Part shown: positions 7,727 through 54,790 of the stretch, piece after piece
Layout: the number at the start of each line of letters is the position of its first letter
Numbering within the stretch: position 1 is the first letter of the stretch
Source of the DNA: Eledone cirrhosa
Taxonomy: Eukaryota
DNA: 64,000 bases
NCBI GenBank assembly: GCA_964016885.1
Contig: OZ024740.1
Span: forward strand, 201,314,001 to 201,378,000
Direction: 5' to 3'
Notes under the pieces: generated by a model
What the model was told of the DNA's origin: nothing
Databases searched by the model: none
What the model saw: the letters and a program-made list of their open reading frames with translations, nothing else
Made by a program: the position numbers and the translations under genes

Positions 7727-8410
7727 AAAGTTAATTTTCATAATTTTCTTATTTTACGTCTTTCATATAATTGTTCTGCATCCCCTTGCATAGAACCACA
7801 AAGTTACTAAGACAAAACATATATATTTGCTAGCATAGGTATGCATCTGTATACATATGTTGGTAGATATACTAATTCTTTATATTTTACCTCCAAATTA
7901 TTTGTTGAGCAAAACTTGCCGAAATTACTACTATAGTTCATGGTAGTAGTTAGGCTCTTGTCTTATTAGCACTCCACTCCTCACTGATTAACCTCAGTGT
8001 CACGTGATTGATTCTTTTGAATTTGCCACTGACCAAGTAGGCAGTTAATTTTTTCAATGTCCTGGAATTTAGTCCCCGCTCGCTTTTTTCCATCCACTGA
8101 ATTATTTTTATATAAGTTCCCTGTGTCCACGCATTGCCTGGGAGCCTAGCTGAAAATAGACTCCCTGATGACGTAAGGATTCTCTATGGGTTCGTTACGT
8201 AACCATATTTATTCCCTTACAGAAACTAATTAGTTGGAGTGAAATTTTAGTAAGTAAGTTAATTTTCATAATTTTCTTATTTTACGTCTTTCATATAACT
8301 GTTCTGCATCTCCTTCCATAGAACCACAAAGTTACTAAGACAAAACATATATATTTGTTAGCATAGGTATGCATCTGTATACATATGTTGGTAGATATAC
8401 TAATTCTTTA
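7727..8410 (+). mobile_element. Non-autonomous hammerhead-bearing retroelement (retrozyme-like), 528-nt monomer with ~155-bp terminal redundancy
   Basis: 7731-7883 is repeated at 8259-8410 (period 528). Bounded by (TA)n. Internal hammerhead at 8160-8240. Confidence 0.75.
8160..8240 (+). ncRNA. Type I hammerhead ribozyme
   Basis: ACTCC-CTGATGA-[cGTAAGG...CCTTACa stem II]-GAAAC-TAATTA-GTT-GGAGT. Stem I ACTCC/GGAGT, palindromic stem III, GUU cleavage triplet. Confidence 0.85.
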
Positions 8411-8740
8411 TATATATATGTGTGTGTGTGTGTGTGTGTGTGTGTGTGTGTGTGTGTGTGTGTGTGTGTGTGTGTGTGTGTGTGTGTGTGTGTGTGTGTG
8501 TGTGTGTGTGTGTGTGTTGACTCAGGCGTAGCTGAGTGGCTAAGAAATTCGCTTCAAATTCGTGTCACATGTTGAAGAATGGCTGTTAGATAAGTGAAGA
8601 TAAAGTAGCTTGTTAAGCAAGTTTCAAAGGAACTGTATGTAGATTGAGAAAGAATGTAAAATAGAAAAAGCATGCGAATATGAAGATTATTGTTCCTACA
8701 TTGGGACGGTGTTGCTGCCGCACATACAGGCATTCTAGAC

Positions 8741-8939
8741 CAGGCATATCAAACATGCGGCCCTTTACAAGCACACCTGCGGCCCGCAGAAAGGTTTTTA
8801 CAGCGCGAGAATGCTTTATCTTCGTAATATAAAATTTTAAAATAATTATAATGTGCGCAATTAGTTGTCGTGTGTGACTCTCAGACAACAAATATGTGAC
8901 CCATGTGGCCCTCGGGCAATCCTCAGTTTGACATGCCTG
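8741..8939. mobile_element. hAT (Charlie-like) MITE
   Basis: TIRs CAGGCATATCAAAC / GTTTGACATGCCTG, internal GCGGCCC motifs, exact 8-bp TSD TTCTAGAC. Confidence 0.88.
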
Positions 8940-10336
8940 TTCTAGACTGCATCCAGGAAGAGCTGATTAGACACGCTTCAACCTCTGGCTTACAGACGTT
9001 CTGCCTCTTCCTTCTGGTTTTTCTTGTGCTGCTACAATGGCCTCTACTGCTCGGAACTAGATGACTTCATGCCTTCTCCACTCAGGAATTCCCACCACAC
9101 TCAACACTTTCCCCATCTCCTCGGCCATATTGTGTCCAAACTACCAGGCTCTAGACAAACCAGTTCACCTAGTTATTCATACCCAGGGATTCTCTTCTTC
9201 GACGTCTTCACTTACAGAAGTAACCATGCAAAAATTTAAGCTGTACATCAACAACACCAGTCTCGTTTGTCTCACAACGTAGAGGTTTTGGGACAGCTAC
9301 AAAAGTCAAGGGCAGTCCGTACCTCCAAACCTATTAAATAAAAGAGAATGTCGCATGAGGAGAATGTTGTTAGGCTATAACAGATGTGTGGAAGTTTGGT
9401 TCTTTAGAAGCGTAAAGGGTCACATGAGACTGGCTTACTTAGAAGAAGAAGAAGAAGAAGAAGAAGAAGAAGAAGAAGAAGAAGAAGAAGAAGAAGAAGA
9501 AGAAGAAGAAGAAGGTTTTAGTCGTGTTAATCCTCTAGAGATTCTATTCAACACTCTCTCTCCCTCCCACACTCTCTCTCTCTCTCTCTCTCTCTCTCTC
9601 ACACACACACTCTCTCTCTCTCTCTCTATCTCTCTCTCTCTCTCTCTCTCTCTCTCTCTCTCTCTCTCTCTCTCTCTCTCTCTCTCTCTCGTTAAAATGC
9701 TGCTCACATATGGATACTGCATCAGCTATATACACTCATACACACAGACACAGACAGACCCAATCACAGACGCATACATGCACACACATATACACAGACA
9801 CATACACACAGATGCATATATCAATTGAACCAAAGATATTTGTTTGAAAAGCTCACACAAAGCGAAACATACGGCCATTACCTGTAACGAATCATACACA
9901 CGTGCACACACACACACACAACACACACACACGCGCACACACACACGCACGCACACATACATATATGTGTGTGTGTGTATACTCTTTTACTCTTTTACCT
10001 GTTTCAGCCATCCGGCTGAGGCCATGCTGGGGCATGTATATAATTATATATATACACATATATGTATGTATATATATGTATATATATATACATATATATA
10101 TATATATACATGGTAGGAGGTGAGTTTTATTGTAGTACAATAAAGCAATGCAAATATCGGATAAGTAGCACTCTACAGTTTGTAGGACTGGAGTATAAAT
10201 AATATAAGATCAAAGATGGTTAAAAGAGTTCCATGTATTTTATTATGCGCATTTCAAAAACAAATATCATCATCAACATATTGATTTAAAACTTCACTAT
10301 TCACAAGTGTTTTTTAACCTTCATATCATGTATCCC

Positions 10337-10407
10337 TATTTTATCTGACGAAAACGCAAATGTCATCTCATGATGATATTTGTTTTTGAAATGCGCATAA
10401 TAAAATA
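10337..10407 (+). ncRNA. Type I hammerhead ribozyme
   Basis: TATTTTAT-CTGACGA-AAAC...GTTTT-GAAA-TGCGCA-TA-ATAAAATA. 8-bp stem I, palindromic stem III ATGCGCAT, AUA triplet. Confidence 0.8.
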
Positions 10408-10635
10408 CTTGGAACTCTTTTAACCATCTGCTGATCTTATATTATATATATATATATATATATATATATATATATATATATATATATATATATATATATA
10501 TATATATATGTAGGAGGTGAGTTTTATTGTAGTACAATAAAGCAATGCAGATATCGGATAAGAAGCACTCTACAGTTTGTAGGACTGGAGTATACATAAT
10601 ATATAAGATCAAAAGATGGTTAAATGAGTTCCATG

Positions 10636-10706
10636 TATTTTATTATGCGCATTTCAAAAACAAATATCATCATGCAATAACATTTGTGTTTTCATCAGAT
10701 AAAATA
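10636..10706 (-). ncRNA. Type I hammerhead ribozyme (inverted copy)
   Basis: Reverse complement of 10796-10866. Confidence 0.82.
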
Positions 10707-10795
10707 GGAGGACATGATATGAAGGTTAAAAAACACTTGTGGATTTAAAACTGCACTATCCACAAGTGTTTTTTAACCTTCATATCATGTGCTCC

Positions 10796-52667: not shown

Positions 52668-52741
52668 TCACCTGATGAAATCAGTGATAATCGATCATGG
52701 CTTCACAATCGATTTATCTCTTATTGAAACATGTGTCGTGA
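52668..52741 (+). ncRNA. Type I hammerhead ribozyme
   Basis: TCAC-CTGATGA-AAT..GATAA TCGAT...ATCGA TTTATC..ATT-GAAAC-ATGT-GTC-GTGA, about 40 nt upstream of a (TA)n run. Confidence 0.72.
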
Positions 52742-53208
52742 TTAAATGATTGGAATTTTACCTTGCTTTCGGATTTTCATTTTTATATATATATATATAT
52801 ATATATATATATATATATATATATATATATGTATGTATGTATGTGTATATATATATATATATATATATATATATATATATATATATATATATATATATAT
52901 ATATATATATATATAAAAACAAATAACGAAACGAAATTAAATTTCGCTTCGTTTGTAACTCACTTTTGTATGACTGACGCTTAAACAATTAAGTTTAAAA
53001 AATTACATCTACATATGCATACTGAAATACTAGTGTGTATATGAATACACACACGTATACATATGTATATGTAACAAGTCTTTCACTGGTTGCTTTACTG
53101 TGAGCACCCAGCTATTCTGTATGTAAACACACAGACAAACCGGTTTTTAGAGTCATACTGGTTTTTGAGGGAACACCTTCCCTCTATTCTCCAGAAAGCC
53201 AGACAAGG

Positions 53209-53253
53209 AATATTGAACTAGTTTCGTTGTTGTTACAACTCATCAGCAATATT
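53209..53253 (-). ncRNA. Minimal type I hammerhead ribozyme
   Basis: Minus strand: AATATTG-CTGATGA-GTTG taacaa CAAC-GAAAC-TA-GTT-CAATATT. Confidence 0.88.
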
Positions 53254-53782
53254 TACCTATCTACCGGCCCTTCTGGAGAATTGTAAAAGCACATATCGTT
53301 ATATGCTTTTTCTATGAAAATTAGTAGTGGGCAGACTAATTTGCATAGAGTGTGAGTACGCACCGGTTCAGCGGAGACGATAAAAACAAATAACGAAACG
53401 AAATTAAATTTCGCTTCGTTTGTAACTCACTTTTGTATGACTGACGCTTAAACAATTAAGTTTAAAAAATTACATCTACATATGCATACTGAAATACTAG
53501 TGTGTATATGAATACACACACGTATACATATGTATATGTAACAAGTCTTTCACTGGTTGCTTTACTGTGAGCACCCAGCTATTCTGTATGTAAACACACA
53601 GACAAACCGGTTACAAACGAAGCGAAATTTAATTTCGTTTCGTTATTTGTTTTTATCGTCTCCGCTGAACCGGTGCGTACTCACACTCTATGCAAATTAG
53701 TCTGCCCACTACTAATTTTCATAGAAAAAGCATATAACGATATGTGCTTTTACAATTCTCCAGAAGGGCCGGTAGATAGGTA

Positions 53783-53827
53783 AATATTGCTGATGAGTTG
53801 TAACAACAACGAAACTAGTTCAATATT
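53783..53827 (+). ncRNA. Minimal type I hammerhead ribozyme (inverted copy)
   Basis: AATATTGCTGATGAGTTGTAACAACAACGAAACTAGTTCAATATT. Confidence 0.88.
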
Positions 53828-54073
53828 CCTTGTCTGGCTTTCTGGAGAATAGAGGGAAGGTGTTCCCTCAAAAACCAGTATGACTCTAAAAACCGGTTTG
53901 TCTGTGTGTTTACATACAGAGTAGCTGGGTGCTCACAGTAAAGCAACCAGTGAAAGACTTGTTACATATACATATGTATACGTGTGTGTATTCATATACA
54001 CACTAGTATTTCAGTATGCATATGTAGATGTAATTTTTTAAACTTAATTATATATATATATATATACACATAT

Positions 54074-54790
54074 TAATATATGTAGAAATAAACACAGTAA
54101 ATTCTGCGTCTAAAATTACGAGGGTAGATTTTACCACAAGTGTTTTATATATTTAAACTGAAGCATACAGTAAGATACAAGATTTCCTATACATACCGTA
54201 TCAATAACGATTTCATCTCTCGGGTGCAGGGTATCAATATGAGTTAATAACTCTATATTTTATTTGTATTTCGGCTCTCTATCTGGTGAGCTTATAATAT
54301 GAGTGTAATTAGGCTATTATTTCTAGCATAACCACTCACACCACCTATAACTTTCAACCCACGAGGTACATTATTTACTTCCGTGAATTTCTTGTTAGAT
54401 GTGTTTTGTTTCATTTAATCTGATCTCTCGCTGATGAAATGCCTAAGGATTATCTGTTACAAACACAATTTTCAGAGCGAAACAGATTAAATCTTTAGTC
54501 TGTCCGAGAGATGAAATAGTTATTGATACGGTATGTATAGGAAATCTTGTATCTTACTGTATGCTTCAGTTTAAATATTTAAAACATTTGTGGTAAAATC
54601 TACCCTCGTAATTTTAGACGTAGAATTTACTGTGTTTTTTCTACATATATTATTATTATAATTATTTCTACTTTAGGCACAAGGCCAGCAATTACCCAGT
54701 ACATTACTGGTAATGCTCAGTATTTATACTTTGAGCTTGTTAATTGCAGGGTATCAATATGAGTTATTAACTTTGTATTTTATTTGTATA
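54074..54790. mobile_element. Retrozyme-like insertion with 150-bp inverted arm and terminal redundancy
   Basis: 54074-54223 is the reverse complement of 54504-54652. 54225-54269 repeats at about 54745-54789. A SINE tail fragment lies at about 54663-54712. Confidence 0.75.
54423..54512 (+). ncRNA. Type I hammerhead ribozyme with full stem III
   Basis: ATCTCTCG-CTGATGA-(irregular stem II)-GAAACAGA-loop-TCTGTC-CGAGAGAT. 8-bp stem I, GUC triplet. Confidence 0.78.

What the first reader, a model, noticed from the sequence alone, without database searches (positions are those of the whole stretch)
7727..54790. Terminally redundant 446-528-nt monomers with one internal ribozyme: footprint of circular RNA templates
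Seen: four elements are more than one unit long, with the hammerhead internal rather than at the ends: 7727-8410 (period 528), 50997-51535 (446), 52913-53612 (467) and 54225-54790 (about 520 including a ~50-bp SINE piece). The ends are permuted relative to the cleavage site. Established: retrozymes self-cleave to monomers that circularise. Inference: these copies derive from rolling reverse transcription of ~450-530-nt circRNAs or multimeric transcripts, which predicts small circular RNAs in this animal.
Basis: partly seen in the sequence, partly recalled or inferred. Interest (0 to 1): 0.78.

Follow-up and report, generated by a model that had tools for sequence, protein, structure and literature searches.

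The report
Hammerhead retrozymes with Penelope-type insertion scars
The four overlapping-ended repeats are real copies of small hammerhead-bearing jumping elements (animal retrozymes), a known kind, and their fixed tail ends, ragged head ends, mirror-image arms and TA-repeat landing sites match the insertion scars of Penelope-like retrotransposons, so the overlap likely reflects copying of a longer-than-unit RNA and does not by itself show circular RNA.

Summary
All four elements exceed one unit (periods 528, 446, 467, 520) and each has one internal hammerhead-like motif. Only two motifs get database support, both below Rfam's cut-off: E3 (HH9, 38.6 bits) and E2 (17.6 bits). The E1 and E4 motifs are read by eye.

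In 190 genomic arms of three families with an uncut 3' end, the 3' ends sit at two fixed sites per family (58/64, 67/71, 56/62). These ends mostly abut (TA)n. The 5' ends vary.

Over half of the sampled insertions are two-armed, with an inverted arm joined 5'-to-5'. One arm ends at the short site and the other at the long site: 17 and 24 insertions in E1 and E3, with none carrying the same site twice.

These features match the published insertion signature of Penelope-like elements (partial tandems, inverted 5' copy, a tail at one end, two internal RT start sites, both strands primed, AT/(TA)n targets). The genome holds intact RT+GIY-YIG ORFs.

So these are non-LTR retrozymes, likely moved by a PLE: a new member of a known kind. 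The overlap needs a template longer than one unit, but circle versus linear concatemer stays open, and no RNA data were available. This scan has noted similar PLE-dependent elements on other genomes.

The parts
7691..7727 (.). (TA)n run next to the 5' end of E1
7728..8413 (+). E1: single arm of 1.3 units (unit 528). The 5' end is 20 nt downstream of the predicted hammerhead cut. The 3' end is at the long site (q163), followed by (TA)3(TG)n.
8159..8241 (+). E1 hammerhead-like motif: helix I GACTCC/GGAGTG, CTGATGA at 8165-8171, long helix II, GAAAC at 8222-8226, palindromic helix III ACTAATTAGT. Predicted cut between 8235 and 8236.
   Evidence: read by eye; no Rfam match
8298..8413 (+). E1 'tail': the 116 nt between the short 3' site (q47, ..CTTTCATATA) and the long 3' site (q163, ..TTCTTTATAT). 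It holds a predicted stem-loop.
50959..50996 (.). (TA)n abutting the 3' end of E2
50997..51536 (-). E2: single arm of 1.2 units (unit 446), sense on the minus strand. The 3' end is at 50997 (short site). The 5' end at 51536 has a non-TA flank.
51201..51272 (-). E2 hammerhead: CTGACGA, U-U at the base of helix II, palindromic helix III ACTAGT. Predicted cut between 51224 and 51223.
   Evidence: HH9, 17.6 bits, E=0.03
52784..52912 (.). (TA)n abutting the 3' end of the E3 left arm
52913..53612 (-). E3 left arm: 1.5 units (unit 467), sense on the minus strand. The 3' end is at 52913 (long site, with the 69-nt tail 52913-52981). The 5' end is at 53612.
53193..53264 (-). E3 hammerhead (canonical type I, palindromic helix III ACTAGT). 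Predicted cut between 53216 and 53215.
   Evidence: HH9, 38.6 bits, E=1.9e-7
53610..54054 (+). E3 right arm: inverted relative to the left arm and joined to it 5'-to-5' with a 3-nt overlap. The 3' end is at the short site (q70-75).
53772..53843 (+). Hammerhead of the E3 right arm
54055..54069 (.). Short (TA)n shared by the 3' ends of the E3 right arm and the E4 left arm
54070..54224 (-). E4 left arm (unit positions 280-432, inverted). The 3' end is at the short site. The 5' end lies within 2 nt of the predicted hammerhead cut.
54225..54789 (+). E4 right arm: 1.09 units (unit 520). The 3' end is at the long site (q45), followed by (TA)n.
54423..54512 (+). E4 hammerhead-like motif: helix I ATCTCTCG/CGAGAGAT, CTGATGA at 54431-54437, irregular helix II, GAAAC, hairpin helix III. 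Predicted cut between 54504 and 54505.
   Evidence: read by eye; no Rfam hammerhead match
54658..54712 (+). ~55-nt piece of another dispersed repeat inside the E4 tail. It is absent from many other E4 copies.

Best explanation
The four elements are copies of four families of small non-coding, hammerhead-bearing retroelements (metazoan non-LTR retrozymes) that were likely inserted by the reverse transcriptase-endonuclease of a Penelope-like element (PLE).

Shown by the sequences: each family has two fixed 3' end points, 63-129 nt apart, mostly abutting (TA)n. The 5' ends vary. Arms run from 0.1 to 14.9 units. More than half of the sampled insertions have a second, inverted arm joined 5'-to-5'. 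One arm ends at the short site and the other at the long site.

Inferred mechanism: the enzyme nicks both strands of a TA-rich target. Each DNA 3' end primes reverse transcription at one of two internal start sites on the retrozyme RNA. Synthesis runs toward the RNA 5' end for a variable distance, and the two cDNAs are joined by microhomology.

The terminal redundancy arises because synthesis starts inside the unit and continues past one unit on a template that repeats. For copies like those in the window, the template was most likely a linear, incompletely self-cleaved concatemeric transcript. A circular monomer is not excluded.
For: 1. Fixed 3' ends. E1: 58 of 64 arms end at q47/48 or q155-165. 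E3: 67 of 71 at q1-7 or q69-85. E2: 56 of 62. The 5' ends are spread around the unit.

2. TA targets. (TA)>=4 lies within 14 nt of the 3' end in 50/64, 59/71 and 37/62 arms, against 4.5-8.9% of random 14-mers.

3. Two-armed insertions. E1: 23, of which 17 are long+short, 0 same+same and 6 have one odd end. E3: 28, of which 24 are long+short, 0 same+same, 3 odd and 1 cut by the locus edge. E2: 16, of which 11 are long+short, 2 short+short, 1 long+long, 1 odd and 1 cut. The window's E3 and E4 are both long+short.

4. Arms of one insertion are more alike than arms of different insertions: E3 98.9 vs 98.0%, E1 96.9 vs 93.7%.

5. Match to the published PLE signature. Partial tandems, an adjacent inverted 5'-truncated copy, a tail often at only one end, and (TA)n bias are described in PMC8557442 (passages). 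Cleavage and extension of both strands, two adjacent internal RT start sites that define the tail, AT-rich targets and multi-copy RNA templates are described in PMC11167929 (main text).

6. The genome holds PLEs. There are 150 GIY-YIG matches over the Pfam cut-off among 10,595 candidates. In the two ORFs (636 and 938 aa) where Pfam finds both domains, RVT_1 precedes a C-terminal GIY-YIG.

7. Retrozyme features. Units have GC 0.32-0.37 and no ATG-ORF over 75 aa. They fold better than shuffles as circles: z = -3.6, -7.1, -11.6 and -3.6.

8. Linear concatemer. In E1, 22 of 61 5' ends lie 1-38 nt downstream of the predicted cut (expected 4.6, p=2.6e-10), and 14 of those arms exceed one unit, so they carry an uncut hammerhead. 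The window's E4 left arm starts within 2 nt of the cut.

9. There are no scars at the cut site: 0 substitutions at the two positions flanking the cut and no indels within 8 nt of it, in 85 E3 units.
Against: No autonomous partner was tied to these families. BLAST of the four units against 32 sampled PLE loci gave only nested retrozyme copies and the unrelated 55-nt piece.

The hammerheads of E1 and E4 are not recognised by any Rfam model, and those of E2 and E3 score below the curated cut-off.

The 5'-end pile-up next to the cut is seen in E1 only: E3 has 7 of 73 and E4 5 of 43, both not significant. In E1 it could instead reflect AT-rich or palindromic microhomology, or a transcription start.

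The tails here (63-129 nt) are longer than the 30-40 bp described for PLEs.

Exceptions exist. There are 6/64, 4/71 and 6/62 odd 3' ends, and 3 of 16 two-armed E2 insertions carry the same site twice.

The sample is the best-scoring 38-40 places of 807-3410 candidates per family, so copies with at least one full unit are over-represented.

Arrays of up to 14.9 units need a long or circular template, or later expansion.

There is no RNA evidence of any kind.
Confidence: 0.72

Rival explanations
1. One reading: monomeric circular RNAs made by hammerhead self-cleavage and ligation are the templates. Target-primed rolling-circle reverse transcription gives copies longer than a unit, and multi-unit arrays.
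For: This is the published model for metazoan retrozymes, with circRNAs shown in coral, mussel and axolotl (PMC7229834, passages).

E2 and E3 units are strongly self-paired as circles (z = -7.1 and -11.6).

Arms reach 7.1, 11.3 and 14.9 units.

The unit-to-unit passage through the cut site is seamless in 85 units.

Within-array variants are mostly private singletons, as expected if all units of an array started alike.

The strict long+short rule (41 insertions, none same+same, in E1 and E3) would follow if a template molecule offers exactly one copy of each start site.
Against: Partial tandems also occur in PLEs that have no hammerhead (PMC8557442).

A purified PLE used unprocessed RNA, and hammerhead mutants inserted equally well (PMC11167929).

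In E1, 14 arms longer than a unit stop just downstream of the cut site. That needs a linear RNA end beyond an uncut hammerhead.

Ends are not randomly permuted.

Intra-array identity (98.6%) is barely above inter-array identity (97.7%).

No RNA run could be examined.
Confidence: 0.3
2. Local DNA events explain the redundancy: tandem duplication or unequal crossing-over of a satellite-like repeat, with no link to insertion.
For: A few variants in the 14-unit array recur at spaced units (for example q20 in units 3-5 and 11-12), which hints at later higher-order duplication. A 2026 preprint proposes local amplification for retrozyme tandems (bioRxiv 10.64898/2026.07.22.740005, passages).
Against: The same two end points recur at dozens of dispersed loci on many contigs. 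The 3' ends abut (TA)n, and inverted arms pair long with short ends. Duplication in place predicts none of this. The window's overlaps are only 45-233 nt and end at the family's fixed sites.
Confidence: 0.05
3. They are LTR-type retrozymes, as in plants, with true terminal repeats made by strand transfers of an LTR-retrotransposon enzyme.
For: The ends are direct repeats. An LTR-retrotransposon pol remnant lies in the window at 45259-47136.
Against: The hammerhead lies outside the terminal repeats and occurs once per unit. It has the open helix I layout (type I), not type III. The overlap length varies from copy to copy (42 to hundreds of nt), and arrays of many units and inverted arms occur. 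I did not search for a PBS or PPT. Flanks are (TA)n, so no 4-bp duplication can be read.
Confidence: 0.01

Closest known systems
Metazoan non-LTR retrozymes (Cervera and de la Pena 2020, PMC7229834). Older examples recalled from memory: newt satellite 2, Schistosoma SM-alpha, cave-cricket pDo500.
   Same: Non-coding, AT-rich units with one type I hammerhead each. Head-to-tail copies run from just over one unit to many units, are dispersed in thousands, and have no LTR features. E1-E3 have a palindromic short helix III of the kind thought to act in pairs. A U-U at the base of helix II in E2 matches what that paper describes for an axolotl motif.
   Different: Units of 446-528 nt are at or above the reported 150-450 bp range. 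Expression, self-cleavage and circularity are untested here. Two of the four ribozyme motifs (E1, E4) have irregular helix II and no model support. The passages I read of that paper do not describe fixed start sites, a one-sided tail or inverted arms.
Insertion signature of endonuclease-positive Penelope-like elements (Craig et al. 2021, PMC8557442; Frangieh et al. 2024, PMC11167929)
   Same: 5' truncation, partial tandems giving pseudo-LTR-like overlaps, an adjacent inverted 5'-truncated copy, an optional tail bounded by two RT start sites and present at one end only, AT-rich or (TA)n targets, a stem-loop at the start region, and a hammerhead in the repeated part.
   Different: There is no ORF, so the elements are non-autonomous. 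The tail is 63-129 nt rather than 30-40 bp. In vitro, no strand difference in start site was seen, whereas here two-armed insertions pair one long with one short end (41 in E1 and E3, none same+same). No sequence link to a particular PLE family was found among 32 loci.
Non-autonomous PLE derivatives with multicopy head-to-tail insertions (e.g. MRC1/Chlamys in Chlamydomonas, PMC8557442, passage) and vertebrate retrozymes derived from PLE pLTRs (bioRxiv 10.64898/2026.07.22.740005)
   Same: Short non-coding elements that make pseudo-LTRs and multi-unit insertions and depend on a PLE.
   Different: Those were tied to partners by 3'-end or pLTR similarity. That test was inconclusive here.
Twin priming of LINE-1 (recalled from memory)
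   Same: An inverted 5' segment joined to a direct 3' segment by microhomology, explained by priming from both target strands.
   Different: In LINE-1 the second priming site is arbitrary and inversions are a minority. Here both primings use fixed sites, and two-armed forms are over half of the sampled insertions.

Membership tests
Metazoan non-LTR retrozyme | One type I hammerhead per unit (E2, E3) | tested here: met
   E3: HH9, 38.6 bits, E=1.9e-7. E2: HH9, 17.6 bits, E=0.03. Both are below Rfam's cut-off of 52. The core boxes and helices are intact in the majority of 171 and 67 copies.
Metazoan non-LTR retrozyme | One type I hammerhead per unit (E1, E4) | tested here: inconclusive
   No hammerhead model matched at E<=10. 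CUGAUGA, GAAAC and complementary helices I and III are present and differ compensatorily between E1 and E4. Helix II starts with a C-A mismatch in E1 and with three unpaired bases in E4.
Metazoan non-LTR retrozyme | Head-to-tail repeats of a few hundred bp, low GC, no LTR, non-coding | tested here: met
   Arms span 0.1-14.9 units. GC is 0.32-0.37. The longest ATG-ORF in a unit dimer is 20-75 aa. Units of 446-528 nt are slightly above the reported range.
Metazoan non-LTR retrozyme | Highly self-paired RNA | tested here: met
   Circular MFE against 60 dinucleotide shuffles: z = -7.1 (E2) and -11.6 (E3). E1 and E4 are weaker at -3.6 each.
Metazoan non-LTR retrozyme | Self-cleavage and accumulation as circular RNA | not testable with these tools
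   No RNA run is listed for this sequence. The runs laid are contigs of unknown kind.
PLE-mobilised element | Partial tandem overlap plus variable 5' truncation | tested here: met
PLE-mobilised element | Adjacent inverted 5'-truncated copy | tested here: met
   There are 23 two-armed insertions against 18 single arms in E1, and 28 against 20 in E3. The window's E3 and E4 are two-armed.
PLE-mobilised element | Two alternative 3' ends (tail), with the tail at one end only | tested here: met
   58/64, 67/71 and 56/62 arms end at two sites. Long+short pairs number 17/23, 24/28 and 11/16, and same+same pairs 0, 0 and 3.
PLE-mobilised element | AT-rich or (TA)n target | tested here: met
   50/64, 59/71 and 37/62 of 3' flanks hold (TA)>=4, against a background of 4.5-8.9%.
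PLE-mobilised element | Autonomous PLE present in the same genome | tested here: met
   150 GIY-YIG matches over the cut-off. RVT_1 plus a C-terminal GIY-YIG occur in single ORFs of 636 and 938 aa.
PLE-mobilised element | Sequence similarity to a partner PLE at the 3' end or pLTR | tested here: inconclusive
   None was found in 32 of more than 10,000 candidate PLE loci. The sample is too small to count as absence.
Plant-type LTR retrozyme | Type III hammerhead inside each of two fixed LTRs | tested here: not met
   There is one hammerhead per unit, outside the terminal overlap. It has the open helix I layout, and overlap length varies between copies.

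The most novel reading that the evidence does not exclude
Each insertion is made by one enzyme complex that copies a single RNA from both start sites at once, the short site for one DNA strand and the long site for the other. This would explain why two-armed insertions pair one tailed with one untailed end (41 insertions, none same+same, in two families). It is an in-vivo footprint of a two-headed (dimeric) Penelope-type enzyme that the test-tube work did not see. On this reading the very young E3 family (units about 99% alike) is still active and would supply abundant hammerhead RNAs, circles included.
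Probability: 0.3. Interest if true: 0.55.

Novelty: new member of a known kind. Interest (0 to 1): 0.36.

Why it matters
The finding does not reveal a new kind of element. It does give a clean natural data set for an open mechanistic question: how Penelope-type enzymes build tandem and inverted insertions.

Three young, high-copy, non-coding families show the two reverse-transcription start sites, the (TA)n targets and a near-absolute 'one tail per insertion' rule. The published in-vitro work could not show that rule.

The data also bear on a practical point. An overlap of ends around a ribozyme is not in itself evidence for circular RNA. If RNA work confirmed circles or concatemers here, E3 (units about 99% alike, arrays up to 15 units) would be a good model for retrozyme mobilisation in an invertebrate-type genome.

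Tried and rejected
RNA evidence. No RNA holder was listed for 52913-53612. Four runs of unknown kind were laid as contigs: no joints and no start or end pile-ups were reported, and no piece spanned the stretch. The very high summed word depth in X1 cannot be read as copy number or expression. Two other coded organisms hold the hammerhead-bearing half at 90-99% likeness.

Partner search. BLAST of the four units against 16 and then 32 PLE loci gave only nested retrozyme copies and the 55-nt foreign piece.

Earlier notes. There are none for this genome.

Pile-up of 5' ends at the cut site. Not found for E3 (7/73) or E4 (5/43). For E2 the 5' ends were not evaluated because its TATG-rich end produces spurious arms.

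Template jumping between cleaved monomers. There are no substitutions at the two positions flanking the cut and no indels within 8 nt of it in 85 E3 units. This does not separate circles from uncut concatemers.

Array-private alleles as a rolling-circle test. Only 2 of the 6 arrays with three or more full units had one, so it is not decisive.

Hairpin self-priming as the source of the inverted arm. Rejected because the two arms meet at different unit positions in most insertions (for example q233 against q47 in the window's E3).

'Exactly one unit' arms in E2 and E4. Considered as a sign of one turn round a circle, but microhomology of the TA-rich start sites with the (TA)n target explains them equally well.

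(TA)n as an element-borne tail rather than a target. This stays open. Some single arms have a non-TA 5' flank (L006, L014, L035, L038).

An earlier script flooded its output with low-complexity hits and was redone with filtering.

Full report
WHAT IS THERE

The window is part of a 3.0-Gb genome (contig C1).

- E1, 7728-8413, is 1.3 units of a 528-nt unit. The overlap is 163 nt at 96% identity.
- E2, 50997-51536, is 1.2 units of a 446-nt unit. The overlap is about 88 nt at 91% and is TATG-rich.
- E3, 52913-53612, is 1.5 units of a 467-nt unit. The overlap is 233 nt at 100%.
- E4, 54225-54789, is 1.09 units of a 520-nt unit. The overlap is 45 nt at 93%.

Nor did it note that E4 is preceded by one (54070-54224).

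THE RIBOZYMES

Rfam finds nothing at its curated thresholds. At relaxed thresholds, E3 matches Hammerhead_HH9 at 38.6 bits, E=1.9e-7, on the minus strand of the 1.5-mer and on the plus strand of the inverted arm. E2 matches weakly at 17.6 bits, E=0.03, on the minus strand. E1 and E4 match no hammerhead model.

By reading, all four have CUGAUGA or CUGACGA, then GAAAC, then a cleavage triplet, with complementary helices I and III of different sequence in each family. The layout is type I, with helix I open. In E1-E3 helix III is a short palindrome (ACUAGU or ACUAAUUAGU). Helix II is canonical only in E3. It has a U-U base in E2, a C-A base in E1 and three extra bases in E4. The majority of 21-171 copies per family share these features. 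So 'one internal ribozyme' is well founded for E3, fair for E2 and unproven for E1 and E4.

I searched the genome with each unit. There were 141-173 matches for E1, E3 and E4 and 45 for E2, with 807-3410 first-look candidates per family, of which only 38-40 were scored. I fetched 40-50 loci per family for E1, E2 and E3 and 20 for E4, then called 'arms', meaning uninterrupted in-phase stretches, with a script.

The ends are not random. The 3' ends in the ribozyme's sense fall at two sites per family:
- E1: q47/48 (31 arms) or q155-165 (27 arms), together 58 of 64.
- E3: q69-85 (32 arms) or q1-7 (35 arms), together 67 of 71.
- E2: 56 of 62.

The two sites lie 63 nt apart in E2, about 69 in E3, 116 in E1 and about 129 in the window's E4. 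Each site ends in a U-run followed by AU, for example ..CTTTCATATA..TTCTTTATAT..AATTGTTTA and ..TTTGTTTTTAT. Each is usually followed by (TA)n: 50/64, 59/71 and 37/62 flanks, against 4.5-8.9% of random 14-mers.

The 5' ends vary. Arm length runs from 0.1 to 14.9 units in E3 and from 0.1 to 2.6 in E1. The sample favours copies with a full unit, because the searches score the best matches first.

TWO-ARMED INSERTIONS

More than half of the sampled insertions consist of an inverted arm and a direct arm joined 5'-to-5'. The joints are variable and show 1-10 nt of microhomology. Both outer ends are therefore 3' ends next to (TA)n.

One arm ends at the short site and the other at the long site:
- E1: 17 of 23, none with the same site twice, 6 with one odd end.
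- E3: 24 of 28, none with the same site twice, 3 odd, 1 cut by the locus edge.
- E2: 11 of 16, 3 with the same site twice, 1 odd, 1 cut.

E4 loci look the same by eye; I did not count them by script. In the window, E3 (long end at 52913, short end at 54054) and E4 (short end at 54070, long end at 54789) obey the rule. E1 is a single long-form arm and E2 a single short-form arm.

Arms of one insertion are more alike than arms of different insertions: 98.9 vs 98.0% in E3 and 96.9 vs 93.7% in E1. This fits one event.

WHAT THIS MATCHES

A purified PLE enzyme cleaves and extends both target strands. It prefers AT-rich DNA and starts reverse transcription at two adjacent internal sites of the RNA that bound the tail. 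It uses unprocessed multi-copy RNA, and hammerhead mutants insert equally well (PMC11167929, main text read in full).

Metazoan retrozymes were proposed to be mobilised through circular RNA by a borrowed RT (PMC7229834, passages). They were recently argued to derive from PLE pseudo-LTRs (bioRxiv 10.64898/2026.07.22.740005: abstract, introduction and passages).

The genome carries many PLEs. There are 150 GIY-YIG matches over the cut-off among 10,595 candidates. ORFs of 636 and 938 aa have RVT_1 followed by a C-terminal GIY-YIG. A 1096-aa ORF holds RVT_1, and the GIY-YIG match lies at its C-terminal end. I could not tie E1-E4 to a particular PLE family: 32 loci were sampled and showed no similarity beyond nested copies.

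CIRCLE OR CONCATEMER?

A copy longer than a unit needs a repeating template, but the genome data do not say which kind.

For circles:
- E2 and E3 units fold far better than shuffles (z = -7.1 and -11.6).
- Some arrays are long.
- The passage through the cut site is seamless in 85 units.
- Within-array variants are mostly private singletons.
- The long+short rule would follow from a template carrying one copy of each start site.

For linear, partly cleaved concatemers:
- Partial tandems occur in PLEs without hammerheads.
- The in-vitro enzyme uses unprocessed RNA.
- In E1, 22 of 61 arm 5' ends lie 1-38 nt downstream of the predicted cut (4.6 expected, p=2.6e-10).
- Fourteen of those arms are longer than a unit and so contain an uncut hammerhead.
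- The window's E4 left arm begins within 2 nt of the cut.

This pile-up is absent in E3 (7/73) and E4 (5/43). In E1 it might instead reflect AT-rich or palindromic microhomology, or a transcription start. I put concatemers slightly ahead for copies like those in the window.

No RNA run was listed, and the contigs laid showed no joints or ends, so the prediction of circular RNA stays untested.

VERDICT

The elements are new members of a known kind. The most useful new point is quantitative. In vivo, two-armed insertions pair one tailed end with one untailed end almost without exception. I infer that one enzyme complex works from both start sites at once. My searches listed no paper that obviously reports this rule for retrozymes, and the passages I read of four papers do not state it. 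This is not proof that it is unpublished.

This scan has noted PLE-dependent tandem or palindromic elements on other genomes before.

Noticed in passing
window 18157-32062: A 14-kb satellite of a 21-nt unit (reported as periods 42 and 63, 94% matches) with strong AT skew.
   Followed up: no
window 37136-41946: A 3.2-kb array of the G-rich octamer GGTGTAGT, followed by 1.5 kb of (TGG)n-like repeats. GC skew reaches 0.96.
   Followed up: no
window 45259-47136 (-): Pol remnant of an LTR retrotransposon: RVT_1 at E=1.9e-32 and RT_RNaseH_2 at E=7e-29 in two adjacent frames. It is unrelated to the retrozymes.
   Followed up: partly
window 51560-51630: A near-perfect hairpin with a ~30-bp stem lies 25 nt beyond the 5' end of E2. 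It could be a foldback or MITE-like element.
   Followed up: no
window 51324-51353 and 53328-53357: E2 and E3 share a conserved block that reads ..ATGCAAAT.. in the ribozyme's sense, roughly 100-140 nt upstream of the cut (family D8). ATGCAAAT is the octamer motif of snRNA-type promoters (recalled from memory), so this may be an internal promoter element.
   Followed up: no
window 54658-54712; also 1242-1275, 16768-16822, 48980-49031: A 55-nt piece of another dispersed, SINE-like repeat sits inside the E4 tail. It recurs in the window and beside PLE ORFs elsewhere. Some E4 loci carry it several times in a row (L066).
   Followed up: partly
window 50997-54789: Three different retrozyme families landed within 3.8 kb. 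E3 and E4 share one short (TA)n (54055-54069) back to back, which suggests that TA microsatellites are hit repeatedly.
   Followed up: partly
L168:7722-9896 (G000 C3, about 308.736 Mb): An array of four or more units of an E2-related subfamily (80-83% identity). Its hammerhead has CTGATGA instead of CTGACGA and a changed helix I. The same locus holds a different long-helix-II hammerhead with palindromic helix III ACCATGGT upstream of a PLE ORF.
   Followed up: no
L127 (G000 C1:193403786-193410751): In this 14.9-unit E3 array, a few variants recur at spaced units (q20 in units 3-5 and 11-12; q247 in units 1 and 9). This hints at later higher-order duplication inside the array.
   Followed up: partly
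window 33641-35286 and 49290-49838: Minisatellites of 47 nt x 35 copies and 52 nt x 10.6 copies.
   Followed up: no
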